This document shows, one piece after another, positions 1,110 through 20,834 of a stretch of DNA of 64,000 nucleotides. Origin of the DNA: Escherichia coli (GTDB lineage Bacteria; Pseudomonadota; Gammaproteobacteria; Enterobacterales; Enterobacteriaceae); NCBI RefSeq assembly GCF_013122565.1, contig NZ_CP053258.1; one strand, 5' to 3'. Position 1 is the first letter of the stretch. Each line of letters starts with the position of its first letter. The notes under the pieces are model-generated. The model had not been told where the DNA came from and did not search any database. It saw nothing but the letters and a program-made list of their open reading frames with translations. A program made the position numbers and the translations under genes.

Positions 1110-1117
1110 TCAGTGTA

Positions 1118-1188
1118 ATGTCGGATGCGTTTCGCTTATCTGACCTGGCATCGCGTGTAGGCCGGATAAGCGAAGCGCATCCGGCACA
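1118..1188. repeat. REP/BIME-type palindromic repeats in the ugpB-ugpA intergenic region
   Basis: Inverted REP-like units seen directly, e.g. gccggataagcgaagcgcatccggca. Confidence 0.6.
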
Positions 1189-1206
1189 GTTCAGGAATTA
1201 ACCGTA

Positions 1207-2936: not shown

Positions 2937-2937
2937 G

Positions 2938-4008: not shown

Positions 4009-4748
4009 GTAACTGGCCTTATCCCCGCATCGTCGCTCATCGTGGCGGCGGTAAGCTGGCCCCCGAAAACACCCTGGCGGCAATCGACGTCGGGGCAAAA
4101 TACGGTCATAAGATGATCGAATTTGACGCGAAGTTATCGAAAGATGGCGAGATCTTTCTGCTCCATGATGACAACCTCGAACGCACCAGCAACGGCTGGG
4201 GCGTCGCGGGTGAACTGAACTGGCAGGATTTACTGCGCGTGGATGCGGGCAGTTGGTACAGCAAAGTGTTTAAAGGTGAGCCGCTGCCGTTGCTTTCGCA
4301 GGTGGCGGAACGCTGTCGTGAACACGGGATGATGGCGAATATCGAAATCAAACCCACCACTGGCACTGGACCATTAACGGGCAAAATGGTGGCGCTGGCG
4401 GCACGCGAACTGTGGGGCGGTATGACGCCGCCGCTGCTGTCATCGTTCGAAATTGATGCTTTAGAAGCCGCACAGCTGGCGGCACCGGAACTGCCGCGTG
4501 GTTTATTGCTTGATGAATGGCGCGACGACTGGCGAGAACTGACCGCGCGGCTGGGCTGCGTCTCTATTCATCTCAATCATAAGTTACTCGATAAAGCGCG
4601 AGTGATGCAGTTGAAAGACGCCGGATTACGGATTCTGGTTTATACCGTCAATAAACCCCAGCGCGCGGCAGAGTTGCTGCGCTGGGGCGTGGATTGCATC
4701 TGTACCGATGCGATTGACGTGATTGGTCCGAACTTTACGGCCCAATAG
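4005..4748 (+). CDS. ugpQ: glycerophosphodiester phosphodiesterase
   Basis: 247-aa GDPD-family protein (HRGG motif near the N-terminus); overlaps the ugpC stop. Confidence 0.9.
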
Positions 4749-5175
4749 TTTTCAACGGAATGTCAGGCTGCGGCGTGCTGGGCTGATTCAGCATGTCGCC
4801 GTTTCTCCTCTCCGGCAGCATATGCTGCTGATTCAACGAACTATCCGGATTACGGTTGCTGTTTAACATCCCGCCGTTGGTGTTGGGCAGCATTTGCTGC
4901 CGGGCGGGATTTCGCTCCCCCGGCTGTGACTGCAACACCCGCTGAGAATTATTGTTTATCTGGTTTTCTAAATGCTGCTGTTGCAACTGAGTTTGCGTTT
5001 TCAGTTGCTGATTCAGCATCCCTTTTTGCTGGATTTGCTGCGTTTGCATCTGGGTTTGCATCCGCTGCTGGCTGGGGATCTGATATCCCGGCTGGTTGGG
5101 GTTATTCAGAGTATTAATGGGCTGTGCAAAGCCGACAAACGGCAGGAGTGCCGTAAGAATCAGAAGTCGTTTCAT
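4735..5175 (-). CDS. yhhA: Gln-rich secreted protein YhhA (DUF2756-like)
   Basis: 146 aa with signal peptide and Q/N-rich low-complexity body; conserved position between ugpQ and ggt. Confidence 0.8.
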
Positions 5176-5294
5176 CGCGTATCCTCCTCTGAAGATATCC
5201 TTTAAGTTTACTCGCTTCCCGACAAAACGATGATTAATTCAGAGTTATATACCAGGCTTAGCTGGGGTTGCCCCTTAATCTCTGGAGAATAACG

Positions 5295-7037: not shown

Positions 7038-7041
7038 TATC

Positions 7042-7075
7042 TTAAGCCCTCTCCCGGTAGGTGAGGGCTTAAATG
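7042..7075 (+). terminator. hairpin terminator after ggt
   Basis: Inverted repeat aagccctctcccggtaggtgagggctt immediately after the ggt stop. Confidence 0.55.
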
Positions 7076-7097
7076 ACAAACTTAGATTGCAAATTAT

Positions 7098-7586
7098 CTA
7101 TTTCACCCGCGCCATATAATACGCATCGACATATTCACCATTACGAAAAGCGTAATTTTTGCCGGTGCCTTCTATGTGAAATCCCAATTTTTTATAGACT
7201 GTGATTGCCGGGGCGTTATCCGCAAACACCGTCAACTCAATACGATCTATCCGTAACCAGTTGTCGCACATTTCAATCAATTCGCGGATCAGGGCGCTGG
7301 CGATGCCGCGGTTGTGCCAGCGGGAGTCAACACAGATACCAAAAGTTGCAACATGACTGCGGCGTGGGCCTTGATAAGCCTCAATGAAAAGATGACCCAC
7401 TACGATGCCATCAATGCAGGCAACCAGTTGTTTAAAACCTTGGCGATCTTTCAATCTTTCTGGCCACCAGCCTTCCGAAGGATGAGGTAGTTGTAGCGTG
7501 TTGCAATACACCTCCGGCTGGGCGTGAATCTGCCTGATGGCCTCGTAATCGCGCGTTTCAGCATGGCGTATCACTATCTCACTCAT
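7098..7586 (-). CDS. yhhY: GNAT-family N-acetyltransferase YhhY
   Basis: 162-aa protein from MSEIVIRHAETRDYEAI; the ORF-track N-terminal extension (to 7664) was rejected. Confidence 0.85.
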   Translation of the reverse strand: MSEIVIRHAETRDYEAIRQIHAQPEVYCNTLQLPHPSEGWWPERLKDRQGFKQLVACIDGIVVGHLFIEAYQGPRRSHVATFGICVDSRWHNRGIASALIRELIEMCDNWLRIDRIELTVFADNAPAITVYKKLGFHIEGTGKNYAFRNGEYVDAYYMARVK

Positions 7587-7683
7587 TCCTTTGTCCTCTT
7601 TGGGGTAAATGTCCCTTTCAACATCATTGACTTTCAAATGCGAGTCAAATGCATTTTTTTGCAAAAAGTGTTGGACAAGTGCG

Positions 7684-7703
7684 AATGAGAATGATTATTA
7701 TTG
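7684..7703 (+). promoter_or_regulatory. Fur box in the ryhB promoter
   Basis: aatgagaatgattattattg resembles the Fur consensus GATAATGATAATCATTATC and lies immediately 5' of ryhB. Confidence 0.7.
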
Positions 7704-7707
7704 TCTC

Positions 7708-7797
7708 GCGATCAGGAAGACCCTCGCGGAGAACCTGAAAGCACGACATTGCTCACATTGCTTCCAGTATTACTTAGCCAGCCGGGTGCTGGCTTTT
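7708..7797 (+). ncRNA. ryhB: small regulatory RNA RyhB (iron-sparing, Fur-repressed, Hfq-dependent)
   Basis: Sequence gcgatcaggaagaccctcgcggagaacctgaaagcacgacattgctcacattgcttccagtattacttagccagccgggtgctggc followed by a T-run is recognised as RyhB; it lies in the yhhY-yhhX intergenic region with an intrinsic terminator hairpin at its 3' end. Confidence 0.9.
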
Positions 7798-7918
7798 TTT
7801 TTGATCTTTCGTTCTCAATTTATCCACGGGAGTGCTTGTGTTCGTTATGCGCACTCCAGTAGGAACCACGTCCGCTTTGCGCTAAGGTGTAAATAACCAC
7901 CTTAAAAAGGACGAAATC

Positions 7919-8956
7919 ATGGTCATCAACTGCGCCTTTATTGGCTTCGGCAAAAGCACCACCCGTTACCATCTGCCGTATGTACTTAACCGCAAGGATA
8001 GCTGGCATGTCGCGCATATTTTTCGCCGCCATGCAAAGCCGGAAGAACAAGCTCCCATTTACTCTCATATCCATTTCACCAGCGATCTCGACGAAGTGCT
8101 AAACGATCCCGATGTTAAGCTGGTTGTTGTCTGCACCCATGCGGACAGCCACTTCGAGTACGCGAAGCGCGCGCTGGAAGCCGGGAAAAATGTGCTGGTC
8201 GAAAAACCGTTCACCCCGACGCTTGCCCAGGCGAAAGAGCTGTTTGCTCTGGCGAAAAGTAAAGGGCTGACCGTCACGCCATATCAGAATCGTCGCTTTG
8301 ATTCCTGCTTCCTGACGGCGAAAAAAGCGATTGAAAGCGGCAAGCTGGGAGAGATTGTCGAAGTGGAAAGCCATTTTGACTATTACCGCCCGGTGGCAGA
8401 AACCAAACCTGGGCTGCCGCAGGATGGCGCGTTCTATGGCCTTGGTGTGCATACGATGGACCAGATTATTTCTCTGTTCGGTCGCCCGGATCACGTCGCT
8501 TATGACATCCGCAGCCTGCGTAATAAAGCCAATCCTGACGACACCTTTGAAGCGCAGCTGTTTTATGGCGACCTGAAAGCCATCGTCAAAACCAGCCATC
8601 TGGTGAAAATCGATTATCCGAAATTTATCGTTCACGGTAAGAAAGGTTCGTTTATTAAATACGGTATCGACCAGCAGGAAACCAGCCTGAAGGCTAATAT
8701 TATGCCGGGCGAACCGGGATTCGCAGCGGATGATTCGGTCGGTGTGCTGGAGTATGTCAATGACGAGGGTGTGACGGTCAGAGAAGAGATGAAGCCAGAG
8801 ATGGGCGATTACGGGCGCGTTTATGATGCGTTGTATCAAACCATCACCAACGGTGCGCCAAATTACGTCAAGGAATCTGAAGTTCTTACCAATCTGGAAA
8901 TCCTTGAACGCGGATTCGAGCAAGCCTCTCCCTCCACAGTGACTCTCGCGAAGTAA
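7919..8956 (+). CDS. yhhX: Gfo/Idh/MocA-family NAD(P)-dependent oxidoreductase
   Basis: 345 aa; N-terminal Rossmann motif AFIGFGKS; conserved position. Confidence 0.85.
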   Translation: MVINCAFIGFGKSTTRYHLPYVLNRKDSWHVAHIFRRHAKPEEQAPIYSHIHFTSDLDEVLNDPDVKLVVVCTHADSHFEYAKRALEAGKNVLVEKPFTPTLAQAKELFALAKSKGLTVTPYQNRRFDSCFLTAKKAIESGKLGEIVEVESHFDYYRPVAETKPGLPQDGAFYGLGVHTMDQIISLFGRPDHVAYDIRSLRNKANPDDTFEAQLFYGDLKAIVKTSHLVKIDYPKFIVHGKKGSFIKYGIDQQETSLKANIMPGEPGFAADDSVGVLEYVNDEGVTVREEMKPEMGDYGRVYDALYQTITNGAPNYVKESEVLTNLEILERGFEQASPSTVTLAK

Positions 8957-9078
8957 GTTTGATGGCCCCTCGAATAGTTCAATTTTTTTGAACAGAGGGG
9001 TCAATTTTCACCCTCTATCATCCCAGGCAGATCGGGTCCACACTAAGCCCATCGAAATCATTCAGGGGGCGAATACAA

Positions 9079-9774
9079 ATGATCTACTTACGCAAAGCAA
9101 ATGAACGTGGTCATGCAAATCATGGCTGGCTGGACTCCTGGCATACTTTCTCTTTTGCCAACTATTACGATCCGAACTTTATGGGCTTCTCCGCGCTGCG
9201 CGTGATTAACGACGACGTGATTGAAGCAGGACAGGGCTTCGGCACTCACCCGCATAAAGATATGGAGATTTTGACCTACGTGCTGGAAGGTACTGTTGAG
9301 CATCAGGACAGCATGGGCAATAAAGAGCAGGTTCCGGCGGGTGAGTTCCAGATTATGAGTGCGGGTACGGGTATTCGTCACTCAGAGTACAACCCAAGCA
9401 GCACCGAGCGTCTGCATCTGTATCAGATCTGGATCATGCCTGAAGAAAACGGTATTACGCCGCGTTATGAACAGCGTCGCTTCGATGCCGTACAGGGCAA
9501 ACAGCTGGTGCTCTCGCCGGATGCGCGAGATGGTTCATTGAAAGTGCATCAGGATATGGAACTGTATCGTTGGGCGTTGCTGAAAGATGAGCAGTCGGTG
9601 CATCAGATTGCCGCTGAACGCCGCGTCTGGATCCAGGTGGTGAAAGGCAATGTCACCATTAACGGCGTGAAAGCCTCGACCAGCGATGGTCTGGCAATCT
9701 GGGATGAGCAGGCGATCTCCATCCATGCGGATAGCGACAGCGAAGTGTTACTGTTCGATCTGCCGCCGGTTTAA
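9079..9774 (+). CDS. yhhW: pirin-like quercetin 2,3-dioxygenase
   Basis: 231 aa; cupin metal-binding His motifs (HPHKDME...); conserved position upstream of gntR. Confidence 0.88.
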   Translation: MIYLRKANERGHANHGWLDSWHTFSFANYYDPNFMGFSALRVINDDVIEAGQGFGTHPHKDMEILTYVLEGTVEHQDSMGNKEQVPAGEFQIMSAGTGIRHSEYNPSSTERLHLYQIWIMPEENGITPRYEQRRFDAVQGKQLVLSPDARDGSLKVHQDMELYRWALLKDEQSVHQIAAERRVWIQVVKGNVTINGVKASTSDGLAIWDEQAISIHADSDSEVLLFDLPPV

Positions 9775-9997
9775 AACTCAACGGCATCTTTGAAGCCTGC
9801 CTTTTTGCAGGCTTCCTCGCTCGCTCCGGTCGCGTGCTGATGTACGCTTCCGGGGTTTTGCCGCGTCGTTAGCACAATGCGATGCAATTGATTTAGTGTA
9901 TATCTAATAATTGTAAACAAGCACTGTTTTCCCCGGGAAGGTTCTGATGCGTCCGTGTTAAACTAAGAGAATCTATCTCTTTTGTACCTTCAGGACG

Positions 9998-10993
9998 ATG
10001 AAAAAGAAAAGACCCGTACTTCAGGATGTGGCTGACCGTGTAGGCGTGACCAAAATGACGGTCAGCCGTTTTTTACGCAACCCGGAGCAGGTTTCCGTCG
10101 CTCTACGCGGCAAGATTGCCGCCGCTCTTGATGAACTGGGCTATATTCCCAATCGTGCGCCCGATATCCTCTCTAACGCCACCAGCCGGGCGATTGGCGT
10201 CCTGTTACCTTCTCTCACCAACCAGGTTTTCGCGGAAGTATTACGCGGAATCGAAAGCGTCACCGACGCGCACGGTTATCAGACCATGCTGGCGCACTAC
10301 GGTTATAAACCGGAAATGGAGCAAGAACGCCTCGAATCCATGCTCTCATGGAATATCGACGGCCTGATCCTCACCGAACGTACCCACACGCCGCGCACCT
10401 TAAAGATGATTGAAGTGGCGGGTATTCCCGTGGTGGAACTGATGGACAGCAAGTCGCCATGCCTCGATATTGCCGTCGGTTTTGATAACTTTGAAGCAGC
10501 ACGCCAGATGACCACTGCCATTATTGCTCGCGGGCATCGCCACATTGCCTATCTCGGCGCACGTCTCGACGAACGTACTATCATCAAACAGAAGGGGTAC
10601 GAACAGGCGATGCTGGATGCAGGTCTGGTGCCGTATAGCGTGATGGTTGAGCAATCTTCTTCTTATTCTTCCGGTATTGAACTGATTCGCCAGGCGCGGC
10701 GGGAATATCCGCAGCTGGATGGCGTGTTCTGTACCAACGATGACCTGGCGGTCGGCGCGGCGTTTGAATGTCAACGTCTGGGGTTGAAAGTTCCTGACGA
10801 TATGGCGATTGCCGGTTTCCACGGTCATGACATTGGTCAGGTGATGGAGCCACGACTGGCGAGCGTGCTTACGCCGCGTGAGCGGATGGGCAGTATTGGC
10901 GCTGAACGCCTGCTGGCGCGTATTCGTGGCGAATCTGTGACACCGAAAATGTTAGATTTAGGTTTCACCTTGTCACCGGGCGGATCTATTTAA
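9998..10993 (+). CDS. gntR: gluconate repressor, LacI family
   Basis: 331 aa; N-terminal helix-turn-helix VTKMTVSRFLRN plus periplasmic-binding-like fold. Confidence 0.92.
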   Translation: MKKKRPVLQDVADRVGVTKMTVSRFLRNPEQVSVALRGKIAAALDELGYIPNRAPDILSNATSRAIGVLLPSLTNQVFAEVLRGIESVTDAHGYQTMLAHYGYKPEMEQERLESMLSWNIDGLILTERTHTPRTLKMIEVAGIPVVELMDSKSPCLDIAVGFDNFEAARQMTTAIIARGHRHIAYLGARLDERTIIKQKGYEQAMLDAGLVPYSVMVEQSSSYSSGIELIRQARREYPQLDGVFCTNDDLAVGAAFECQRLGLKVPDDMAIAGFHGHDIGQVMEPRLASVLTPRERMGSIGAERLLARIRGESVTPKMLDLGFTLSPGGSI

Positions 10994-11072
10994 GCCCACA
11001 AATTTGAAGTAGCTCACACTTATACACTTAAGGCACGGATGGATATTGCTTCTGATATTGTCCGGCCGGACA

Positions 11073-11101
11073 ATGTTACCGATAACAGTTACCAGTAACA
11101 T
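11073..11101 (+). promoter_or_regulatory. GntR operator upstream of gntKU
   Basis: Near-palindrome atgttaccgataacagttaccagtaacat, matching the GntR operator type (ATGTTAC...GTAACAT). Confidence 0.75.
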
Positions 11102-11131
11102 TTTTAATTCTTGTATTGTGGGGGCACCACT

Positions 11132-11659
11132 TTGAGCACGACTAACCATGATCACCACATTTACGTCTTGATGGGCGTATCGGGCAGCGGCAAATCTGCG
11201 GTCGCCAGTGAAGTGGCGCATCAACTTCATGCCGCGTTTCTTGATGGCGATTTCCTCCATCCACGGCGCAATATCGAAAAAATGGCGTCTGGCGAACCGC
11301 TGAATGACGACGATCGCAAACCGTGGTTGCAGGCGCTGAACGACGCCGCGTTTGCTATGCAGCGCACTAATAAAGTGTCGCTGATCGTCTGTTCTGCATT
11401 GAAAAAACACTATCGCGACTTGCTGCGTGAAGGTAATCCGAATCTCTCTTTCATCTACCTGAAAGGCGATTTTGATGTGATTGAAAGCCGCCTGAAAGCG
11501 CGCAAAGGCCATTTCTTTAAAACCCAAATGTTGGTGACGCAGTTTGAAACGCTGCAGGAGCCGGGTGCGGACGAAACCGATGTACTGGTGGTAGATATCG
11601 ATCAACCGCTGGAAGGTGTTGTGGCAAGCACCATTGAGGTTATTAAAAAAGGCAAATAA
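11132..11659 (+). CDS. gntK: gluconokinase (thermoresistant)
   Basis: P-loop GVSGSGKS; product begins STTNHDHHIY, which implies a TTG start at 11132 inside the longer ORF 11111..11659. Confidence 0.88.
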   Translation: MSTTNHDHHIYVLMGVSGSGKSAVASEVAHQLHAAFLDGDFLHPRRNIEKMASGEPLNDDDRKPWLQALNDAAFAMQRTNKVSLIVCSALKKHYRDLLREGNPNLSFIYLKGDFDVIESRLKARKGHFFKTQMLVTQFETLQEPGADETDVLVVDIDQPLEGVVASTIEVIKKGK

Positions 11660-11662
11660 GTA

Positions 11663-13003
11663 GTGACTACATTAACGCTTGTTTTAACAGCAGTAGGGTC
11701 TGTTTTACTGCTGCTGTTTTTAGTCATGAAGGCGCGTATGCACGCTTTCCTGGCTTTGATGGTGGTGTCCATGGGGGCTGGCCTTTTTTCCGGTATGCCG
11801 CTCGATAAAATCGCAGCGACGATGGAAAAAGGGATGGGAGGCACCCTCGGCTTCCTGGCGGTGGTTGTCGCCCTGGGAGCTATGTTTGGCAAGATCTTAC
11901 ATGAAACCGGCGCAGTCGATCAGATTGCCGTCAAAATGCTCAAATCCTTCGGTCACAGCCGCGCGCATTATGCCATCGGCCTTGCGGGGCTGGTCTGTGC
12001 GCTACCGCTGTTCTTTGAAGTGGCGATTGTTCTGCTGATTAGCGTTGCTTTCTCAATGGCGCGCCACACCGGTACGAACCTGGTGAAGCTGGTAATCCCA
12101 TTATTTGCAGGCGTGGCGGCAGCGGCTGCGTTCCTGGTGCCTGGACCAGCGCCAATGCTGCTGGCATCGCAGATGAACGCCGATTTTGGCTGGATGATCC
12201 TGATTGGCCTGTGTGCGGCAATTCCGGGAATGATTATTGCTGGGCCGCTGTGGGGTAACTTTATCAGCCGTTACGTTGAGCTGCATATTCCTGACGACAT
12301 CAGCGAACCGCATCTCGGCGAAGGCAAAATGCCATCTTTCGGATTCAGCCTGTCGCTGATCCTGTTGCCGCTGGTGCTGGTGGGGCTGAAAACCATTGCC
12401 GCGCGTTTTGTGCCAGAAGGCTCTACCGCTTACGAATGGTTCGAGTTTATTGGTCATCCGTTTACCGCGATTCTGGTTGCTTGTCTGGTGGCGATTTACG
12501 GTCTGGCAATGCGTCAGGGCATGCCAAAAGACAAAGTGATGGAGATTTGCGGTCACGCGCTGCAACCGGCGGGGATCATTCTGCTGGTGATTGGTGCAGG
12601 CGGCGTGTTCAAACAGGTGCTGGTTGACTCTGGCGTAGGTCCGGCACTCGGCGAAGCGTTAACCGGCATGGGCCTGCCGATTGCCATCACCTGCTTCGTG
12701 CTGGCAGCGGCGGTGCGCATCATTCAGGGGTCTGCCACCGTTGCCTGCTTAACGGCGGTAGGACTGGTAATGCCGGTCATTGAACAACTGAACTACTCCG
12801 GTGCGCAAATGGCGGCGCTGTCGATTTGTATCGCCGGTGGTTCGATTGTTGTCAGCCACGTTAACGACGCTGGTTTCTGGTTGTTCGGTAAATTTACCGG
12901 CGCGACCGAAGCCGAAACGCTGAAAACCTGGACCATGATGGAAACCATCCTCGGCACTGTCGGTGCCATCGTTGGGATGATTGCGTTCCAGCTGTTGAGT
13001 TAA
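11663..13003 (+). CDS. gntU: low-affinity gluconate:H+ symporter (GntP family)
   Basis: 446-aa polytopic GntP-family transporter; apparent GTG start at 11663, 4 nt after the gntK stop. Confidence 0.9.
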   Translation: MTTLTLVLTAVGSVLLLLFLVMKARMHAFLALMVVSMGAGLFSGMPLDKIAATMEKGMGGTLGFLAVVVALGAMFGKILHETGAVDQIAVKMLKSFGHSRAHYAIGLAGLVCALPLFFEVAIVLLISVAFSMARHTGTNLVKLVIPLFAGVAAAAAFLVPGPAPMLLASQMNADFGWMILIGLCAAIPGMIIAGPLWGNFISRYVELHIPDDISEPHLGEGKMPSFGFSLSLILLPLVLVGLKTIAARFVPEGSTAYEWFEFIGHPFTAILVACLVAIYGLAMRQGMPKDKVMEICGHALQPAGIILLVIGAGGVFKQVLVDSGVGPALGEALTGMGLPIAITCFVLAAAVRIIQGSATVACLTAVGLVMPVIEQLNYSGAQMAALSICIAGGSIVVSHVNDAGFWLFGKFTGATEAETLKTWTMMETILGTVGAIVGMIAFQLLS

Positions 13004-13015
13004 TTACTGCGACAA

Positions 13016-13050
13016 ATTACTGCGAGCTTGCTCGCAGTAATTCATTTCTC
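13016..13050 (+). terminator. perfect palindromic hairpin after gntU
   Basis: aattactgcgagc-tt-gctcgcagtaatt followed by a T-rich tract; half-site also directly repeated at 13002-13012. Confidence 0.6.
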
Positions 13051-13142
13051 TTTTCTCCTCTCTTCATCTTTTTGATCTCTCTCGCAAATTTACCTGCTAA
13101 TAATCCGTTCTAATCACTGCCTAAAGATCGCAGGAGATAAAG

Positions 13143-15239
13143 ATGGAAAAGCACGGAGCTGAATTGCTTTTACAGCGGATGTTAGGCAATACCACCGCTA
13201 CTTTCAGGGAAGGTCAATGGGAAGCCATGGACGCGGTGGTGAACCGACGGCGAAAACTGCTGGTTGTCCAACGCACTGGCTGGGGGAAAAGCGCCGTGTA
13301 CTTCATCTCCAGTAAAATCTTCCGCGATCGCGGCGCTGGCCCGACAATTATCATCTCTCCTTTGCTTGCCCTGATGCGTAACCAGGTTGCCGCCGCTGAA
13401 CGGTTAGGTATTACGGCTGAAACGTTGAATTCTACAAACAGGGAAGAATGGCAGCGCATTAGCGATAAGTTGCTGCAAGGTGCGGTCGATTGCTTGCTGG
13501 TTTCCCCGGAACGTTTGGCAAACCAGGACTTTATCGAAACGGTTTTATATCCTATAGCCGATCGTATTGGTTTGCTTGTGGTCGACGAGGCGCACTGCAT
13601 CTCTGATTGGGGCCACGATTTTCGCCCGGATTACCGACGTATATTAGATATTTTGCGCCAACTGCCTGCGAATACCCCTGTTCTGGGTACAACCGCGACA
13701 GCGAATAACCGTGTCGTTGAGGATATCCGTCAGCAATTGGGTGACATTGTGATTCAGCGTGGAACGCTGGCTCGCGAAAGTTTGGCGCTTGATGCCTTAG
13801 TCTTAGGTGAACAGTCATCCCGTCTGGCATGGTTAGCAACGGTTATCCCTCAGTTTTCCAAATCGGGAATTGTTTATACCCTGACTACTCGCGATGCCGA
13901 ACTTGTCGCCGAGTGGTTAAGGACAAATGGTATCAGTGCATTTGCTTACTACAGCGGCGTGACTTGTGAAGGCGCGGAAGATTCTAATACTGCCAGGGAA
14001 TATCTGGAGCAGGCGCTGCTGGCAAATAAAATCAAAGTGCTGGTCGCGACGACGGCATTAGGTATGGGGTTTGATAAACCTGATTTAGGTTTCGTCATTC
14101 ATTATCAAATGCCGGGGTCTATTGTCGGTTACTACCAACAGGTAGGGCGTGCCGGGCGTGCTATAGATTCCGCTGTTGGCATATTGCTTTGTGGTGGTGA
14201 AGACCGCGCTATTCATAAATTCTTCCGTGAAAGCGCCTTTCCTGCGGAGGCGCAAATTCATGAAATACTCAACGTACTTAGCGAGAATGACGGTCTTACC
14301 CTACGAGGCATTGAACAACGGACGAATCTCCGTTATGGGCAAATAGAAAAAGCACTGAAATTATTGGTAGCTGAAAATCCATCGCCTGTGGTGTATACCG
14401 AGAAATTATGGCGCAGAACTATCGTCAGTTTCTCTCCTGACCATGAACGAATTAACCATTTGATGAATCAGAGAAAAAGTGAGCTGGCAGACGTTGAAAG
14501 CTATGTCACGACCAAGGAGTGCAAAATGCAATTTCTGCGCCGCGCACTCGATGAGCCAAGTGCCGAACGTTGTGGTAAATGTAGCAGTTGTCTTCAGCAT
14601 CCGTTGTTGTCGCCCGATATTGATAGCGGCTTACTCCATGCGGCAAATTTATTTATTAAACACGCTGACCTGCCATTAAATCTCAATAAACAGGTAGCAT
14701 CTGGGGCTTTTACGCAATACGGATTTAAAGGGAACTTGCCTGCGGGTTTACAAGGATCTACGGGGCGAGTCCTTTCTCGTTGGGGAGATTCCGGGTGGGG
14801 AAAGCAGGTAGCACAGGAGAAAAAAACGGGGCGATTCAGTGATGAGCTGGTGGAGGCATGTGCGGAAATGGTTCGCCAACGCTGGAATCCGCATCCTGAA
14901 CCAACCTGGGTATGCTGCGTTCCTTCATTAAGGCACCTCGACCTGGTTCCTAATTTTGCCCGGCGACTGGCGGCGAAACTTGGCTTACCTTTTATTGATG
15001 CCATTGAAAAAGTCGTGGACAATCCACCGCAGAAAATGCAGCAAAACCGTTTTCACCAGTGTCAAAATCTCGACGGGGCGTTTGTGATTACCCCTCCTTT
15101 GATGCCAGGTCCGGCGTTGCTGGTTGACGATATCGTGGATTCTGCATGGACGCTGACAGTTCTGACAGCACTGTTACGCCAGGCAGGTTGCCCGACGGTT
15201 TATCCTCTTGCCCTTGCTTCTACCTCGGTAAAAAATTGA
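13143..15239 (+). CDS. RecQ-family superfamily-2 DNA helicase fused to a C-terminal ComF/GntX-like phosphoribosyltransferase-like domain
   Basis: 698 aa. Walker A QRTGWGKS (aa 43-50); DEAH box VVDEAHCISDWGHDFRPDY (nt 13584-13595); motif III TATA; motif VI QQVGRAGR; Cys cluster ERCGKCSSC; C-terminal LLVDDIVDSAWTLTVLTALL resembles the PRPP-binding loop of PRTases (compare GntX VIVDDVVTTGSTVAEIAQLL in this window). Confidence 0.75.
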   Translation: MEKHGAELLLQRMLGNTTATFREGQWEAMDAVVNRRRKLLVVQRTGWGKSAVYFISSKIFRDRGAGPTIIISPLLALMRNQVAAAERLGITAETLNSTNREEWQRISDKLLQGAVDCLLVSPERLANQDFIETVLYPIADRIGLLVVDEAHCISDWGHDFRPDYRRILDILRQLPANTPVLGTTATANNRVVEDIRQQLGDIVIQRGTLARESLALDALVLGEQSSRLAWLATVIPQFSKSGIVYTLTTRDAELVAEWLRTNGISAFAYYSGVTCEGAEDSNTAREYLEQALLANKIKVLVATTALGMGFDKPDLGFVIHYQMPGSIVGYYQQVGRAGRAIDSAVGILLCGGEDRAIHKFFRESAFPAEAQIHEILNVLSENDGLTLRGIEQRTNLRYGQIEKALKLLVAENPSPVVYTEKLWRRTIVSFSPDHERINHLMNQRKSELADVESYVTTKECKMQFLRRALDEPSAERCGKCSSCLQHPLLSPDIDSGLLHAANLFIKHADLPLNLNKQVASGAFTQYGFKGNLPAGLQGSTGRVLSRWGDSGWGKQVAQEKKTGRFSDELVEACAEMVRQRWNPHPEPTWVCCVPSLRHLDLVPNFARRLAAKLGLPFIDAIEKVVDNPPQKMQQNRFHQCQNLDGAFVITPPLMPGPALLVDDIVDSAWTLTVLTALLRQAGCPTVYPLALASTSVKN

Positions 15240-16441
15240 TGAATCTTTCAGCCAATGCACAAGCAACTCTCCTGCTAACCAGCGATTTTTCTCGCGCGGC
15301 GGCGAGTGAGTATAACCCTCTTAGTAATAGTGAATGGGGGAAGTTTGCATTATGGCTGAAGCACCAACGTATCAGTCCCGCCGATCTTCTGGTGCCGCAA
15401 CCGCAAGAGAAACTTACAGGCTGGAGCGATCCGCGTATTTCTCAGGAGCGTATTCTTGGCTTGCTGGCGCGTGGTCATAGTCTGGCGTTGGCGGTAGATA
15501 AGTGGCAACGCGCCGGTTTATGGATCTTAACCCGCGGAGATGCCGATTATCCCGTTCGCTTGAAAAACCGATTGCGAACGGATGCACCTCCCGTTTTATT
15601 TGGCTGTGGGAATAAAGCATTACTGCAAGCGGAAGGTATGGCGATTGTTGGCTCGCGAGATGCTCCGACTGACGATTTGCGCTATACCCAACAACTGGCC
15701 GCGAAACTGGCCCAACAGGGGATTTGCGTTATCTCTGGTGGTGCGCGAGGTATTGATGAATGTGCAATGGCGTCGGCACTGGAGGCCGGGGGAACTGCCG
15801 TTGGCGTATTAGCTGATAGCTTGTTAAAAACGAGCACGTTAGTGAAATGGCGTGAAGGGCTTATAGCAGGCAACCTGGTGTTGATTTCGCCGTTTTACCC
15901 AGAGGTACGTTTCACTGTCGGCAATGCGATGGCGCGGAATAAATATATTTATTGCCTTGCTGAAAGCGCAATGGTTGTACGTGCGGGAATGTCCGGTGGA
16001 ACGATAACCGGGGCGATGGAAGCATTAAAACATCAGTGGCTGCCTGTGCAGGTTAAACCAAATCAGGATATGCAATCAGCCAATTCACGATTAGTAGAAA
16101 ATGGGGCGTCATGGAGTACTGAACAGGCTGAGAATGTGACGTTCAGACTGCCAGACGTTACTGGGCTGATTTATGACAAAGCACTCCGTAACGCTCAACC
16201 AGAACTGTTTTCGCTGCATGAAGATGACGCAAATTACGCAGTAATGCCCGCGCATACGCCTGTCGATTTTTATCAACTCTTTGTGGCGGAACTGGCGATC
16301 CTTGCAAAGGAATCGATAAGTATTGAAAGGCTGGCGTCTTGTACTGGTTTAACCATCGAACAAATTCGTGTGTGGCTGAACCGCGCAGAAGAAGAGGGAA
16401 GGGTTATTCGATTGGGCGAAGGTCATTATCAGTTCAGGTAA
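15239..16441 (+). CDS. DprA/Smf-like (SLOG Rossmann-fold) DNA-processing protein with a C-terminal winged-helix-like tail
   Basis: 400 aa from MNLSANAQ; ATG overlaps the helicase TGA (TGATG). DprA core motifs MAIVGSRDAP...GICVISGGARGIDECAMASALEAGG (nt ~15737-15757); C-terminal SIERLASCTGLTIEQIRVWLNRAEEEGRVIRL looks like a winged helix. Confidence 0.75.
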   Translation: MNLSANAQATLLLTSDFSRAAASEYNPLSNSEWGKFALWLKHQRISPADLLVPQPQEKLTGWSDPRISQERILGLLARGHSLALAVDKWQRAGLWILTRGDADYPVRLKNRLRTDAPPVLFGCGNKALLQAEGMAIVGSRDAPTDDLRYTQQLAAKLAQQGICVISGGARGIDECAMASALEAGGTAVGVLADSLLKTSTLVKWREGLIAGNLVLISPFYPEVRFTVGNAMARNKYIYCLAESAMVVRAGMSGGTITGAMEALKHQWLPVQVKPNQDMQSANSRLVENGASWSTEQAENVTFRLPDVTGLIYDKALRNAQPELFSLHEDDANYAVMPAHTPVDFYQLFVAELAILAKESISIERLASCTGLTIEQIRVWLNRAEEEGRVIRLGEGHYQFR

Positions 16442-16444
16442 TAA

Positions 16445-16481
16445 AACAGGTGCCGCGTCTGGTTGTGTGCAGCACCTGTTT
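16445..16481. terminator. bidirectional hairpin between the convergent DprA-like gene and yhgN
   Basis: Inverted repeat aacaggtgc...gcacctgtt lying between the two convergent stop codons. Confidence 0.55.
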
Positions 16482-16486
16482 GAACC

Positions 16487-17080
16487 TTACCCCTTCATCC
16501 ACATTCGAATGCCGTCGAGGAACATCTGGGTTGCCATCATCACCAGAATCAATCCCATCAGGCGTTCAAGTGCGTTCACCCCTTTCTCGCCCAGCAGACG
16601 TAAAAATAGCGAAGACTGTAGCAGGATGACAAAGGTGCCGCCCCAGGCCAGCAGCAGAGCAATCACCAGATGTCCCATCTGATTCGGGTACTGATGAGAC
16701 AACAACATCAGCGTGGCGAGAATAGTCGGCCCGGCGACTAACGGAATTGCCAACGGCACGATAAACGGCTCTTCACCTGCCGGAAGCCCGCTGCTATTTC
16801 CTGAAGCGCTGGGAAAAATCATCTTAATGGCGATCAGAAACAGAATGATGCCGCCAGAAATGGAGACGGTTTCTGCTCGCAGGCTGAGAAATGCCAGAAT
16901 TTTCTCACCCGCAAACAGGAACACCAGCATCACCAGGAGAGCAATAAGCAACTCTCGCACCATGATTGCCCGCCGTCTTTTCGGTTCAGTATGTTTCAGT
17001 ACGGACATGAAAATAGGTAGGTTTCCGAGCGGATCCATAATCAGGATCAATAAAACTGCTGCAGAAATGATTTCATTCAT
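16487..17080 (-). CDS. yhgN: MarC-family (UPF0056) inner membrane protein
   Basis: 197-aa polytopic membrane protein; conserved position upstream of asd. Confidence 0.88.
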   Translation of the reverse strand: MNEIISAAVLLILIMDPLGNLPIFMSVLKHTEPKRRRAIMVRELLIALLVMLVFLFAGEKILAFLSLRAETVSISGGIILFLIAIKMIFPSASGNSSGLPAGEEPFIVPLAIPLVAGPTILATLMLLSHQYPNQMGHLVIALLLAWGGTFVILLQSSLFLRLLGEKGVNALERLMGLILVMMATQMFLDGIRMWMKG

Positions 17081-17271
17081 AACTCAAATTCCCTGATAAT
17101 TGCCGCGGACTTTCTGCGTGCTAACAAAGCAGGATAAGTCGCATTACTGATGGCTTCGCTATCATTGATTAATTTCACTTGCGACTTTGGCTGCTTTTTG
17201 TATGGTGAAAGATGTGCCAAGAGGAGACCGGCACATTTATACAGCACACATCTTTGCAGGAAAAAACGCTT

Positions 17272-18375
17272 ATGAAAAATGTTGGTTTTATCGGCTGGCG
17301 CGGTATGGTCGGCTCCGTTCTCATGCAACGCATGGTTGAAGAGCGCGACTTCGACGCCATTCGCCCTGTCTTCTTTTCTACTTCTCAGCTTGGCCAGGCT
17401 GCGCCGTCTTTTGGCGGAACCACTGGCACACTTCAGGATGCCTTTGATCTGGAGGCGCTAAAGGCCCTCGATATCATTGTGACCTGTCAGGGCGGCGATT
17501 ATACCAACGAAATCTATCCGAAGCTTCGTGAAAGCGGATGGCAAGGTTACTGGATTGACGCAGCATCGTCTCTGCGCATGAAAGATGACGCCATCATCAT
17601 TCTTGACCCCGTCAATCAGGACGTCATTACCGACGGATTAAATAATGGCATCAGGACTTTTGTTGGCGGTAACTGTACCGTAAGCCTGATGTTGATGTCG
17701 TTGGGCGGTTTATTCGCCAATGATCTTGTTGATTGGGTGTCCGTTGCAACCTACCAGGCCGCTTCCGGCGGTGGTGCGCGACATATGCGTGAGTTATTAA
17801 CCCAGATGGGCCATCTGTATGGCCATGTGGCAGATGAACTCGCGACCCCGTCCTCTGCTATTCTCGATATCGAACGCAAAGTCACAACCTTAACCCGTAG
17901 CGGTGAGCTGCCGGTAGATAACTTTGGCGTGCCGCTGGCGGGTAGCCTGATTCCGTGGATCGACAAACAGCTCGATAACGGTCAGAGCCGCGAAGAGTGG
18001 AAAGGGCAGGCGGAAACCAACAAGATCCTCAACACATCTTCCGTAATTCCGGTAGATGGTTTATGTGTGCGTGTCGGGGCATTGCGCTGCCACAGCCAGG
18101 CATTCACTATTAAATTGAAAAAAGATGTGTCTATTCCGACCGTCGAAGAACTGCTGGCTGCGCACAATCCGTGGGCGAAAGTCGTTCCGAACGATCGGGA
18201 AATCACTATGCGTGAGCTAACCCCAGCTGCTGTTACCGGCACGCTGACCACGCCGGTAGGCCGCCTGCGTAAGCTGAATATGGGACCAGAGTTCCTGTCA
18301 GCCTTTACCGTGGGTGACCAGCTGCTGTGGGGGGCCGCGGAGCCGCTGCGTCGGATGCTTCGTCAACTGGCGTAA
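17272..18375 (+). CDS. asd: aspartate-semialdehyde dehydrogenase
   Basis: 367 aa from [16 protein letters not shown] (NAD(P)-binding); the longer ORF start at 17212 was rejected. Confidence 0.93.
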
Positions 18376-18390
18376 TCTTTATTCATTAAA

Positions 18391-18412
18391 TTTGGGGCGC
18401 GATGCCGCCCCT
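18391..18412 (+). terminator. hairpin after asd
   Basis: ggggcgcgatgccgcccc GC-rich inverted repeat just after the asd stop. Confidence 0.5.
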
Positions 18413-18647
18413 GTTAGTGCGTAATACAGGAGTAAGCGCAGATGTTTCATGATTTACCGGGAGTTAAATAGAGCATTGGCTATTCTTTAAGGGTGGCTGA
18501 ATACATGAGTATTCACAGCCTTACCTGAAGTGAGGACGACGCAGAGAGGATGCACAGAGTGCTGCGCCGTTCAGGTCAAAAAAATGTCACAACCAGAAGT
18601 CAAAAATCCAATTGGATGGGGTGACACAATAAAACAGGAAGACAAGC

Positions 18648-20834
18648 ATGTCCGATCGTATCGATAGAGACGTGATTAACGCGCTAATTGCAGGCCATTT
18701 TGCGGATCCTTTTTCCGTACTGGGAATGCATAAAACCACCGCGGGACTGGAAGTCCGTGCCCTTTTACCCGACGCTACCGATGTGTGGGTGATTGAACCG
18801 AAAACCGGGCGCAAACTCGCAAAACTGGAGTGTCTCGACTCACGAGGATTTTTTAGCGGCGTCATTCCGCGACGTAAGAATTTTTTCCGCTATCAGTTGG
18901 CTGTAGTCTGGCATGGTCAGCAAAACCTGATTGATGATCCTTACCGTTTTGGTCCGCTAATCCAGGAAATGGATGCCTGGCTATTATCTGAAGGTACTCA
19001 CCTGCGCCCGTATGAAACCTTAGGTGCGCATGCAGATACTATGGATGGCGTCACAGGTACGCGTTTTTCTGTCTGGGCTCCAAACGCCCGTCGGGTCTCG
19101 GTGGTTGGGCAATTCAACTACTGGGACGGTCGCCGTCATCCGATGCGCCTGCGTAAAGAGAGCGGCATCTGGGAACTGTTTATCCCTGGGGCGCATAACG
19201 GTCAGCTCTATAAATACGAGATGATTGATGCCAATGGCAACTTGCGTCTGAAGTCCGACCCTTATGCCTTCGAAGCGCAAATGCGTCCGGAAACCGCGTC
19301 TCTTATTTGCGGGTTGCCGGAAAAGGTTGTGCAGACTGAAGAGCGCAAAAAAGCGAATCAGTTTGATGCGCCAATCTCTATTTATGAAGTTCACCTGGGC
19401 TCCTGGCGGCGTCACACCGACAACAATTTCTGGTTGAGCTACCGCGAGCTGGCCGATCAACTGGTGCCTTATGCTAAATGGATGGGCTTTACCCACCTCG
19501 AACTACTGCCCATTAACGAGCATCCCTTCGATGGCAGTTGGGGTTATCAGCCAACCGGCCTGTATGCACCAACCCGCCGTTTTGGTACTCGCGACGACTT
19601 CCGTTATTTCATTGATGCCGCACACGCAGCGGGTCTGAACGTGATTCTCGACTGGGTGCCAGGCCACTTCCCGACCGATGACTTTGCGCTTGCCGAATTT
19701 GATGGCACGAACTTGTATGAACACAGCGATCCGCGCGAAGGCTATCATCAGGACTGGAATACGCTGATCTACAACTATGGTCGCCGTGAAGTCAGTAACT
19801 TCCTCGTCGGTAACGCGCTTTACTGGATTGAACGTTTTGGTATTGATGCGCTGCGCGTCGATGCGGTGGCGTCAATGATTTATCGCGACTACAGCCGTAA
19901 AGAGGGGGAGTGGATCCCGAACGAATTTGGCGGGCGCGAGAATCTTGAAGCGATTGAATTCTTGCGTAATACCAACCGTATTCTTGGTGAGCAGGTTTCC
20001 GGTGCGGTGACAATGGCTGAGGAGTCTACCGATTTCCCTGGCGTTTCTCGTCCGCAGGATATGGGCGGTCTGGGCTTCTGGTACAAGTGGAACCTCGGCT
20101 GGATGCATGACACCCTGGACTACATGAAGCTCGACCCGGTTTATCGTCAGTATCATCACGATAAACTCACCTTCGGGATTCTCTACAACTACACTGAAAA
20201 CTTCGTCCTGCCGTTGTCGCATGATGAAGTGGTCCACGGTAAAAAATCGATTCTCGACCGGATGCCGGGCGACGCATGGCAGAAATTCGCTAACCTGCGC
20301 GCCTACTATGGCTGGATGTGGGCATTTCCGGGCAAGAAACTGCTGTTCATGGGGAACGAATTTGCCCAGGGCCGCGAGTGGAACCATGACGCCAGCCTCG
20401 ACTGGCATCTGTTGGAAGGCGGCGATAACTGGCACCACGGTGTCCAGCGTCTGGTGCGCGATCTGAACCTCACCTACCGCCACCATAAAGCAATGCATGA
20501 ACTGGATTTTGACCCGTACGGCTTTGAATGGCTGGTGGTGGATGACAAAGAACGCTCGGTGCTGATCTTTGTGCGTCGCGATAAAGAGGGTAACGAAATT
20601 ATCGTTGCCAGTAACTTTACGCCGGTGCCGCGTCATGATTATCGCTTCGGCATTAATCAGCCAGGCAAATGGCGTGAAATCCTCAATACCGATTCCATGC
20701 ACTATCACGGCAGTAATGCAGGCAATGGCGGCACGGTACACAGCGATGAGATTGCCAGCCACGGTCGTCAGCATTCACTAAGCCTGACACTACCACCGCT
20801 GGCCACTATCTGGCTGGTTCGGGAGGCAGAATGA
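18648..20834 (+). CDS. glgB: 1,4-alpha-glucan branching enzyme
   Basis: 728 aa, GH13 family; first gene of the glgBXCAP cluster. Confidence 0.95.

What the first reader, a model, noticed from the sequence alone, without database searches (positions are those of the whole stretch)
13001..16486. The helicase/DprA module is bounded by hairpins and lacks any integrase, transposase or tRNA
The left edge has a perfect palindrome (aattactgcgagc-tt-gctcgcagtaatt, 13016-13043) preceded by a direct repeat of its half-site (taattactgcga at 13001-13012). The right edge has a hairpin (16445-16481) squeezed between two convergent stop codons. No mobility gene is visible. This pattern fits a compact cargo-only insertion (hotspot-type) rather than an intact mobile element, and the boundary repeats could mark the insertion scar.
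Basis: seen in the sequence. Interest (0 to 1): 0.45.

Follow-up and report, generated by a model that had tools for sequence, protein, structure and literature searches.

The report
Known PsyrTA module with terminator hairpins
The helicase/DprA pair is the already described PsyrTA (RqlHI) toxin-antitoxin/anti-phage module at its usual, already catalogued place between gntU and yhgN, and the flanking hairpins look like conserved transcript-end structures of that old allele, not scars of a recent insertion.

Summary
There is a perfect 13+2+13 palindrome at 13015-13042, an extra copy of its 5' arm at 13002-13012, and a hairpin at 16444-16481 between convergent stop codons. No integrase, transposase or tRNA is nearby.

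The two genes are full-length PsyrT and PsyrA, the same system as E. coli RqlH/RqlI. Of 5,426 complete E. coli genomes, 1,650 carry the module, about 1,641 of them at this exact site. All others have a 56-bp spacer with a different hairpin. The whole spacer differs between the two alleles, from stop codon to stop codon. There are no target duplications or terminal repeats.

The "recent cargo insertion with a scar" reading is not supported:
- The module sits after gntU in four other enterobacterial lineages.
- Its synonymous divergence within E. coli matches that of the flanking genes.
- The left hairpin is conserved, with an invariant 7-bp core and five covarying outer pairs.
- The right hairpin keeps its structure but not its sequence.

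Best reading: an old, site-fixed accessory allele, gained or lost by recombination in the flanking genes, whose hairpins are transcript-end structures. A published supplementary table already lists "gntU-yhgN, PsyrTA, no mobile element". Interest is low.

The parts
11663..13003 (+). gntU (gluconate permease). Its stop codon TAA (13001-13003) is the left breakpoint between the occupied and empty alleles.
   Evidence: Pfam GntP_permease, E = 2e-168. Homology to empty-site genomes ends exactly at the stop codon.
13004..16486 (+). Allele-specific segment of 3,483 bp. It replaces the 56-bp spacer found in module-free E. coli.
   Evidence: Alignments A1 and A2. Empty-site matches span 674 nt in the record, against 4,101 nt here. 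No similarity between the two spacers.
13002..13012 (+). Extra direct copy of the 5' arm of the palindrome (AATTACTGCGA), overlapping the gntU stop codon. It could pair with the 3' arm as an alternative hairpin. Function unknown.
   Evidence: D2, I2. Perfect only in Escherichia, degenerate in other lineages.
13015..13042 (+). Perfect palindrome/hairpin (13-nt arms), read as the 3'-end hairpin and intrinsic terminator of gntU in the occupied allele.
   Evidence: Flagged as terminator-like, with tail CATTTCTCTT. Conserved in 5 lineages with an invariant CTGCGAG/CTCGCAG core and 5 covarying outer pairs.
13043..13062 (+). Pyrimidine/T-rich tail after the hairpin (CATTTCTCTTTTCTCCTCTC).
   Evidence: Comparable T-rich tails in L091 and L104, weaker in Citrobacter and Silvania.
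13072..13076 (+). TTGAT block, conserved in Escherichia and four of the five lineages (CTGAT in Silvania) upstream of psyrT. Role unknown; no canonical sigma-70 promoter was found around it.
   Evidence: The promoter scan found nothing on the plus strand here.
13143..15239 (+). psyrT / rqlH: RecQ-like helicase with a C-terminal phosphoribosyltransferase (PRTase) domain, the toxin. Intact ORF of 698 aa.
   Evidence: PADLOC PsyrT, E = 0, residues 3-697 matching profile positions 5-687 of 689. Pfam DEAD and Helicase_C; Pribosyltran in the C-terminal part. Motifs TGWGKS, VDEAH and LLVDDIVDSAWT are present.
15239..16441 (+). psyrA / rqlI: DprA/SLOG-like antitoxin of 400 aa. Its ATG overlaps the psyrT stop codon by 1 nt (TGATG).
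   Evidence: PADLOC PsyrA, E = 1.2e-200, residues 1-400 matching 1-397 of 398. Pfam DNA_processg_A. AlphaFold model, pLDDT 88.5, has SAM-like, Rossmann and C-terminal winged-helix domains. Best structural matches are DprA 3MAJ and ShosA 8ZVA.
16444..16481 (.). Hairpin between the convergent psyrA and yhgN stop codons, with an A-tract and T-tract on either side. Read as a shared bidirectional terminator.
   Evidence: Citrobacter and Silvania have a different GC-rich hairpin at the same position.
16487..17080 (-). yhgN (MarC/NAAT family). Its stop codon is the right breakpoint.
   Evidence: Pfam MarC, E = 5e-66. Homology to empty-site genomes resumes at 16487.

Best explanation
Segment 13004-16486 is the "occupied" allele of the gntU-yhgN spacer. 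It carries the two-gene PsyrTA (= RqlHI) toxin-antitoxin/anti-phage operon.

How the module works (from the literature on the E. coli orthologue, not tested here):
- PsyrT/RqlH is a RecQ-like helicase whose C-terminal PRTase domain is genotoxic.
- PsyrA/RqlI is a DprA-like protein that binds and neutralises it.
- The two genes are co-transcribed and, from the overlapping stop and start codons, probably translationally coupled.

Origin of the allele (inferred from the comparisons here):
- It is not a recent insertion by a mobile element. It is an old, site-fixed accessory allele that has stayed next to gntU in several Enterobacteriaceae.
- It is gained, lost or swapped as a whole by homologous recombination in the flanking core genes, so it needs no integrase.

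The boundary structures (inferred):
- The left palindrome is the 3'-end hairpin (intrinsic terminator or attenuator) of the gntU transcript in this allele. It takes the place of the unrelated terminator of the empty allele.
- The right hairpin is a bidirectional terminator shared by psyrA and yhgN.
For: Identity of the module:
- Full-length PADLOC matches: PsyrT E = 0 and PsyrA E = 1e-200.
- Helicase and PRTase domains in PsyrT, DprA domain in PsyrA.
- The PsyrA model is DprA/ShosA-like.
- PsyrTA is named as the same system as RqlHI. Russell & Mulvey showed for E. coli F11 that the two genes form an operon, that the PRTase domain is toxic, that RqlI neutralises it and that the proteins interact.

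Site fixation in E. coli:
- 1,650 of 5,426 complete genomes carry the module, all on chromosomes, and about 1,641 of them between gntU and yhgN. Every other genome has the 56-bp spacer.

Age of the allele:
- Within-E. coli dS is 0.02-0.14 for psyrT and 0.04 for psyrA. For the flanks it is 0.09-0.14 (gntU) and 0.03-0.06 (yhgN, asd).
- The arrangement gntR-gntK-gntU-psyrT-psyrA recurs in Citrobacter freundii, Silvania hatchlandensis and two unnamed enteric lineages. Their PsyrT is 68-73% identical to the window's.

Exchange by recombination:
- An E. fergusonii strain has the module at about 98% identity. Its gntU and yhgN flanks are mostly 92-96% identical, and asd-glgB only 80-88%.

Absence of mobile-element signatures:
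- No terminal repeats, no tRNA, no near-identical copy on plasmids or phages.
- Hochhauser et al. 2023 list the locus with mobile element "None".

Left hairpin:
- It lies 11 nt after the gntU stop, the same relative place as the canonical terminator of the empty allele.
- The terminator scan flags it.
- All 5 outer pairs are kept through double-sided changes in 5 lineages. No shuffle of 500 reaches the observed covariation.
- The two G-U pairs in L104 are tolerated only in plus-strand RNA.
- None of 80 distant PsyrTA loci has this palindrome. Upstream palindromes of any kind are rare there, 7 of 76 loci.

Right hairpin:
- Each genus has a different GC-rich hairpin between the convergent stop codons.
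- The fold is stable on both strands.
Against: - The 7-bp core of the left stem is invariant across lineages whose intergenic DNA is otherwise only 49-63% identical to the window's. A plain terminator would not need that, so an additional sequence-specific role is possible.
- The T-tract is imperfect in E. coli and weak in Citrobacter and Silvania.
- No sigma-70-like promoter for psyrT was found between the hairpin and the ATG. The hairpin may therefore be a leaky attenuator rather than a full stop.
- The terminator scan did not flag the right hairpin. Its 12-nt loop exceeds the scan's 8-nt limit.
- Between genera, the module's synonymous sites are saturated (pS 0.73-0.80) while the flanks' are not (0.47-0.66). 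Strictly vertical co-inheritance with the flanks is therefore not shown.
- The empty spacer is not derivable from the occupied one, so the ancestral state in E. coli remains unresolved.
- Anti-phage activity of the E. coli allele was not seen in its native host or when overexpressed.
Confidence: 0.7

Rival explanations
1. One reading: a recent, cargo-only insertion at a defence hotspot, with the palindrome and its half-site repeat being the scar or attachment remnant of the insertion event.
For: - Presence/absence polymorphism with sharp junctions at the two stop codons.
- Both hairpins are absent from empty-site genomes.
- No mobility genes.
- In other genera the neighbourhood of yhgN is variable: a BrnT/BrnA toxin-antitoxin pair in a Klebsiella sp. 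and a YdgH-like gene in a Citrobacter sp..
Against: - No repeat is shared between the left and right ends.
- The half-site repeat is on the left side only.
- The palindrome is conserved with compensatory changes in orthologous loci of four other lineages.
- Module dS within E. coli equals flank dS.
- The site has only one cargo type and one empty allele in 5,424 matched E. coli genomes.
- The published catalogue does not count this locus as a hotspot.
Confidence: 0.08
2. The palindrome is a protein-binding operator, for example for the C-terminal winged helix of PsyrA, as in classical type II toxin-antitoxin autoregulation. On this view the extra half-site is a third binding site.
For: - The core CTGCGAG/CTCGCAG is invariant in 5 lineages despite heavy divergence around it.
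- E. coli has three copies of the half-site.
- PsyrA has a confidently modelled C-terminal winged-helix domain, residues about 344-399.
- The related antitoxin ShosA binds ssDNA and dsDNA.
Against: - The outer stem positions covary. That is expected for base pairing, not for a protein site.
- The element sits about 100-130 nt upstream of the ATG and directly after the gntU stop, not over a recognisable promoter.
- No such palindrome occurs upstream of 80 distant PsyrTA operons, or of the Proteus copy embedded in a type I restriction-modification operon.
- The winged helix is a general feature of full-length DprA (3MAJ is the top structural match). Pfam HTH hits are below threshold.
- The third half-site is perfect only in Escherichia.
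Confidence: 0.15
3. The hairpin is a leaky attenuator that lets gluconate-induced gntKU transcription read through into psyrTA. The module would then be functionally wired to gntU, which would explain why it stays next to gntU.
For: - The module remains linked to gntU in 5 lineages, even where the right flank has changed (L091 lacks yhgN; L104 has AIM24).
- No sigma-70-like promoter was found upstream of psyrT.
- The T-tract is suboptimal.
- PsyrTA expression patterns are reported to be strongly correlated between E. coli strains with similar genomic context.
Against: - There is no transcript data here.
- Russell & Mulvey treat rqlHI as a separate two-gene operon, although they only tested the rqlH-rqlI junction.
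- Conserved blocks downstream of the hairpin (TTGAT, TAAAT) could belong to an unrecognised promoter.
Confidence: 0.12

Closest known systems
PsyrTA / RqlHI toxin-antitoxin and anti-phage system (Sberro 2013; Russell & Mulvey 2015; Millman 2022)
   Same: - Both proteins match the PADLOC PsyrT and PsyrA profiles end to end.
- Same gene order, with overlapping stop and start codons.
- Same domains: RecQ-like helicase plus PRTase, and a DprA/SLOG-like protein.
- E. coli alleles at this same site are 95-99% identical at the DNA level. The studied F11 rqlHI operon is most likely one of them; this is inferred, because F11 itself was not compared.
   Different: Nothing of substance. The window carries an allele whose best match among complete RefSeq E. 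coli genomes is 98.6%. Its exact PsyrT is WP_171460228.1.
ShosTA (PRTase toxin with a DprA-like antitoxin)
   Same: - The antitoxin fold is shared: ShosA 8ZVA is the second-best structural match, and the PADLOC ShosA profile matches at E = 7e-27.
- The toxin contains a PRTase domain, and toxicity shows up as DNA damage and filamentation.
   Different: - ShosT has no RecQ helicase domain.
- By the PADLOC scores, PsyrT and PsyrA are separate families from ShosT and ShosA.
Defence-island integration hotspots of E. coli (Hochhauser et al. 2023)
   Same: Variable occupancy between two conserved core genes. A defence system with no detectable mobile element, as in some of their islands.
   Different: - Only one cargo type and one empty allele occur at this site.
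- Their S3 table lists "gntU-yhgN" with hotspot = No.
- The arrangement is conserved across genera.
Rho-independent (intrinsic) terminators, including bidirectional ones between convergent genes
   Same: - A stable hairpin a few nucleotides after a stop codon, followed by a T-rich stretch.
- Pairing is conserved through compensatory changes.
- The right hairpin has an A-tract and a T-tract on either side.
   Different: - The left stem has an invariant 7-bp core, an AT-rich base and an interrupted T-tract.
- An extra copy of the 5' arm lies upstream.

Membership tests
PsyrTA / RqlHI | Toxin: RecQ-like SF2 helicase fused to a C-terminal phosphoribosyltransferase domain | tested here: met
   PADLOC PsyrT, E = 0, full length. 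Pfam DEAD, Helicase_C and weak RecQ_Zn_bind. Pribosyltran at E = 6e-4 in residues about 605-684. PRPP-loop motif LLVDDIVDSAWT present.
PsyrTA / RqlHI | Antitoxin: DprA/SLOG-like protein encoded immediately downstream in the same operon | tested here: met
   PADLOC PsyrA, E = 1.2e-200, full length. Pfam DNA_processg_A. Model matches DprA and ShosA. ATG overlaps the psyrT stop codon.
PsyrTA / RqlHI | Toxicity of the first gene, neutralised by the second through protein-protein interaction | not testable with these tools
   Shown experimentally for E. coli F11 rqlHI (Russell & Mulvey). Both ORFs are intact here.
PsyrTA / RqlHI | Protection against phage | not testable with these tools
   Millman et al. 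report PsyrTA as phage-protective. The native E. coli NILS69 system gave no detectable protection.
Integrative mobile element / genomic island | Integrase, transposase or recombinase gene within or next to the segment | tested here: not met
   Only psyrT and psyrA lie between gntU and yhgN. Neighbours are yhhX, yhhW, gntRKU, yhgN, asd, glgB. The published table gives mobile element = None.
Integrative mobile element / genomic island | Target-site duplication or terminal direct/inverted repeats at both ends, or a tRNA/tmRNA target | tested here: not met
   No repeat links the two ends. No tRNA in the 64-kb window.
Defence hotspot (sensu Hochhauser et al. 2023) | The same chromosomal position occupied by different cargo or mobile elements in different strains | tested here: not met
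   All 5,424 matched E. coli genomes have either PsyrTA or the 56-bp spacer. Hotspot flag is "No" in their S3 table. At family level the yhgN neighbourhood does vary.
Intrinsic terminator (left hairpin) | GC-containing stem-loop directly followed by a U-rich tract, downstream of a stop codon | tested here: inconclusive
   Passes the consensus scan (12 pairs, 5 GC, tail CATTTCTCTT). Stable fold and covariation. The U-tract is interrupted and no 3'-end data exist.
Intrinsic terminator (right hairpin, bidirectional) | Stem-loop with an A-tract upstream and a T-tract downstream, between convergent genes | tested here: inconclusive
   AAACAGGTGC...GCACCTGTTT folds at -22.7 kcal/mol on the plus strand and -26.3 on the minus strand. 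Other genera have analogous but unrelated hairpins. The scan did not flag it, because the loop exceeds 8 nt.
Type II toxin-antitoxin operator | Palindrome overlapping the toxin-antitoxin promoter and bound by the antitoxin | tested here: inconclusive
   The palindrome does not overlap any detectable promoter and is absent from distant PsyrTA loci. PsyrA does have a winged helix. Binding cannot be tested here.

The most novel reading that the evidence does not exclude
The left hairpin may be more than a terminator. It may be a sequence-specific RNA or DNA element: an invariant CTGCGAG/CTCGCAG core, plus an alternative 5' arm overlapping the gntU stop codon. Such an element could meter read-through from gluconate-induced gntKU transcription into the toxin-antitoxin operon. 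PsyrTA would then be a long-standing, metabolically wired neighbour of gntU, kept as an old presence/absence polymorphism across Enterobacteriaceae.
Probability: 0.12. Interest if true: 0.45.

Novelty: already known. Interest (0 to 1): 0.2.

Why it matters
The finding itself matters little.
- The module is the well-described PsyrTA/RqlHI system.
- Its position between gntU and yhgN, without any mobile element, is already recorded in a published E. coli defence-system table.

The modest added value is threefold.
- It gives a clean example of a defence/toxin-antitoxin module that persists at one chromosomal site across genera and spreads or disappears by flank recombination, not by a mobile element.
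- It shows that hairpins at the edges of such modules can be ordinary transcript-end structures and need not be insertion scars.
- The conserved core of the left hairpin, and the apparent lack of a dedicated promoter, give a small testable lead on how this toxin-antitoxin operon is expressed.

Tried and rejected
- **Scan of 100,044 species genomes with PsyrT.** It was useless for junctions but served as a control set.
- **Palindrome in the control set.** The palindrome core is absent from all 80 distant loci. Upstream palindromes of any kind are barely enriched there: 7 of 76 loci, against 9 of 304 gene-body windows.
- **Terminal repeats or target duplications** between the two ends: none found.
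- **tRNA/tmRNA:** none. **Rfam families at permissive E-value:** none.
- **Deriving the empty 56-bp spacer from the occupied allele** (a deletion remnant). Local alignments score no better than shuffles.
- **Comparing empty sites across genera.** Each has its own unrelated terminator, so the ancestral state cannot be read from them.
- **Plasmid and phage carriage.** Only one distant (65% nt) plasmid copy and no phage copy.
- **Sigma-70 promoter between the hairpin and psyrT.** None found by the scan. My manual inspection of the conserved TTGAT and TAAAT blocks puts them about 33 nt apart, which does not fit a -35/-10 pair.
- **LexA box.** Considered because the toxin induces SOS, then rejected from my own knowledge of the consensus. 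The palindrome reads CTG-N12-CAG, whereas the LexA box is CTG-N10-CAG.
- **Pfam HTH call for the PsyrA C-terminus.** Only sub-threshold hits. The structure model was needed to see the winged helix.
- **Paper search for a described gntU terminator.** Nothing useful.
Full report
**1. The observation**

The sequence features are real. The left palindrome AATTACTGCGAGC-tt-GCTCGCAGTAATT lies at 13015-13042, one base to the left of the coordinates given. Its 13-nt arms are perfectly complementary. An 11-nt direct copy of its 5' arm lies at 13002-13012 and overlaps the gntU stop codon. The half-site occurs nowhere else in the window beyond chance.

The right hairpin has arms at 16444-16456 and 16469-16481, 12/13 complementary. 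It lies between the stop codon of the second module gene (16439-16441) and that of yhgN on the other strand (16487-16489). Both hairpins fold much better than shuffled sequence, with z from -3.5 to -4.6. There is no tRNA in the 64-kb window and no Rfam family in 12000-17500. The surrounding genes are ordinary core genes: yhhX, yhhW, gntR, gntK, gntU, then yhgN, asd, glgB.

**2. What the module is**

- The 698-aa protein (13143-15239) matches the PADLOC PsyrT profile end to end (E = 0). The 400-aa protein (15239-16441) matches PsyrA end to end (E = 1.2e-200).
- Pfam finds the RecQ-type helicase core in the first protein and DprA (DNA_processg_A, SLOG) in the second. A phosphoribosyltransferase domain lies in the C-terminal part of the first.
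- Walker A (TGWGKS), DEAH and the PRPP loop (LLVDDIVDSAWT) are all intact.
- The psyrA ATG shares one base with the psyrT stop codon (TGATG). The profile match supports this 400-aa start over the 431-aa start used by PGAP.
- An AlphaFold model of PsyrA, built from 50 homologues (mean pLDDT 88.5), shows three parts. They are an N-terminal helical domain, the Rossmann DprA domain, and a C-terminal winged helix after a disordered linker.
- Its best structural matches are full-length DprA (3MAJ) and ShosA (8ZVA).

PsyrTA is the same system as RqlHI. Russell & Mulvey studied the E. coli F11 operon. They showed co-transcription, genotoxicity of the RqlH PRTase domain in the absence of RqlI, and physical interaction of the two proteins. 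Millman et al. list PsyrTA among phage-protective toxin-antitoxin systems. In its native E. coli host NILS69, neither deletion nor overexpression gave detectable protection.

**3. Junctions, and whether the hairpins are native**

Of 5,426 complete E. coli genomes, 5,424 match the flanks. Of these, 1,641 carry the module in one piece at this site. The others carry the two flanks 56 bp apart. A module-only query finds 1,650 genomes, all chromosomal, at 95-99% identity. Virtually every copy therefore sits at this one site, and the site has only two states.

Alignments of occupied and empty alleles show that homology stops exactly at the gntU stop codon (13003) and resumes exactly at the yhgN stop codon (16487). 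The empty spacer is GTTTGTTCGCCCGGTAGTTGTGACGCTACCGGGTTCTTTTCGAAAAACTCTCCTCG. It has its own, unrelated, canonical terminator hairpin.

Both hairpins therefore belong to the occupied allele and are absent from genomes without the module. But there is also no scar:
- No direct or inverted repeat joins the two ends.
- The empty spacer resembles neither end of the occupied allele beyond chance.

**4. Age and mode of transmission**

- Within E. coli, synonymous divergence of the module is 0.02-0.14 for psyrT and 0.04 for psyrA. This is in the range of the flanks: gntU 0.09-0.14, yhgN and asd 0.03-0.06. A recently spread element would be far more uniform than its flanks.
- The next relatives of PsyrT after Escherichia/Shigella are only 68-73% identical. 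They all sit in the same place, as gntR-gntK-gntU-psyrT-psyrA. This holds in Citrobacter freundii, Silvania hatchlandensis and two unnamed enteric lineages. In one of these yhgN is gone, and in the other the right flank is entirely different.
- More distant copies (66% and below) lie in other contexts, typically defence islands. In Proteus and Shewanella the module follows hsdM and hsdS of a type I restriction-modification system; in Proteus hsdR follows it. In Vibrio it lies next to Wadjet and an Eco57I-like gene.
- Between genera, the module's synonymous sites are saturated while the flanks' are not. Strict co-descent with the flanks is therefore not proven.
- An E. fergusonii strain has the module at about 98% identity to E. 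coli. Its flanking gntU and yhgN are mostly 92-96% identical, and asd-glgB only 80-88%. This mosaic is what allele exchange by homologous recombination in the flanks would produce.
- No near-identical copy exists on plasmids or phages.
- The supplementary table S3 of Hochhauser et al. 2023 already lists "gntU-yhgN" with hotspot "No", mobile element "None", system PsyrTA, and an island of 3,486 bp in ATCC 25922.

**5. The hairpins**

*Left hairpin.* It recurs in all five gntU-linked lineages, 11-25 nt after the gntU stop codon.
- The 7-bp core CTGCGAG/CTCGCAG is invariant.
- The five outer pairs are different in sequence but paired in every lineage. Seven pairs in all show double-sided changes, and none of 500 shuffles reaches the observed covariation. 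Sliding the pairing partner by any offset destroys the signal.
- The two G-U pairs in L104 are compatible only with plus-strand RNA.
- The hairpin takes the position that the canonical terminator has in the empty allele. It is followed by a T-rich tail and passes a terminator consensus scan.
- It is absent from all 80 distant PsyrTA loci. Upstream palindromes are not a general feature of PsyrTA operons.

I therefore read it as the gntU transcript's 3' hairpin, a terminator or attenuator, and not as an attachment site. Three things remain unexplained: the invariance of the core, the extra 5'-arm copy (perfect only in Escherichia), and the absence of a recognisable sigma-70 promoter before psyrT. 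These keep two minority readings alive. One is an operator for the PsyrA winged helix. The other is a leaky attenuator that couples psyrTA to gntKU transcription.

*Right hairpin.* It has a different sequence in each genus but the same position and GC-rich character. It is flanked by an A-tract and a T-tract and folds stably on both strands. This is what a bidirectional terminator between convergent genes looks like.

**6. Verdict**

It is wrong on the scar and hotspot reading. The module and its location are already known. The only new detail is the conserved, covarying hairpin with an invariant core at the gntU-psyrT boundary. Novelty: already known. Interest: low.

Noticed in passing
L095 (E. 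coli O157:H7 Z1615), equivalent to window 13658 and 14929: In O157:H7 the toxin gene psyrT is a pseudogene. It has a 1-nt deletion (stop near codon 202) and a 29-nt tandem duplication. psyrA remains intact. RefSeq also annotates it as frameshifted.
   Followed up: partly
window 15146-15239: PGAP annotates the DprA-like gene as 431 aa, starting at 15146 and overlapping psyrT by 94 nt. The PsyrA profile instead matches a 400-aa product starting at the ATG at 15239, which shares one base with the psyrT stop codon (TGATG). Other genera have a 4-nt ATGA overlap.
   Followed up: partly
window 13011-13609 versus L094 (ATCC 25922, phylogroup B2): The distal promoter region and the first ~470 nt of psyrT are only 87-92% identical between the window and the B2 allele, against about 98% for the rest of the module. 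This suggests a mosaic allele or a locally fast-evolving segment.
   Followed up: no
L103 (E. fergusonii GCA_041950025.1), equivalent to window 17200-19600: Identity to E. coli drops abruptly to 80-88% across asd and the 5' part of glgB. It is 92-99% to the left of that point and about 98% in the module. This marks a recombination mosaic around the locus.
   Followed up: partly
L102 (Klebsiella sp. BIGb0407) 3673-4249; L101 (Citrobacter sp. JGM124) 3700-3915: In other genera the DNA next to the yhgN stop codon holds other small cargo. The Klebsiella sp. has a BrnT/BrnA toxin-antitoxin pair, and the Citrobacter sp. has a YdgH/BhsA-like gene with no gntU called in the locus. The yhgN neighbourhood is therefore variable at family level.
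   Followed up: no
L105 (Proteus terrae) 634-10100; L009 (Shewanella surugensis) 728-7407: In Proteus, PsyrTA homologues at about 66% identity are embedded in a type I restriction-modification operon (hsdM-hsdS-psyrT-psyrA-hsdR). In Shewanella hsdM and hsdS lie directly upstream, but no downstream gene was identified. In Vibrio mexicanus (L029) the module lies between a Wadjet JetD-like gene and an Eco57I-like methylase.
   Followed up: partly
window 9998-13003 versus 16487-18375: Among E. coli strains, gntR and gntU show synonymous divergence of 0.09-0.15. This is two to three times that of yhgN and asd (0.03-0.06) on the other side of the module. The excess does not track presence or absence of the module.
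   Followed up: no
window 15619-15630: A near copy (11/12) of the palindrome arm, ATTACTGCAAGC, lies inside psyrA. It is probably chance and was not checked for conservation.
   Followed up: no
plasmid NZ_OX030731.1, 37412-40265: One E. coli plasmid (100 kb) carries a distantly related PsyrTA pair at about 65% nt identity to the chromosomal module. A second PsyrTA lineage is therefore circulating in E. coli on a plasmid.
   Followed up: no
window 13072-13076 and 13110-13114: Two short blocks (TTGAT and CTAAT/TAAAT) are shared across most of the gntU-linked lineages (Silvania has CTGAT; L104 has TTAAT), upstream of psyrT. They are about 33 nt apart, too far for a -35/-10 pair, and their role is unknown.
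   Followed up: partly
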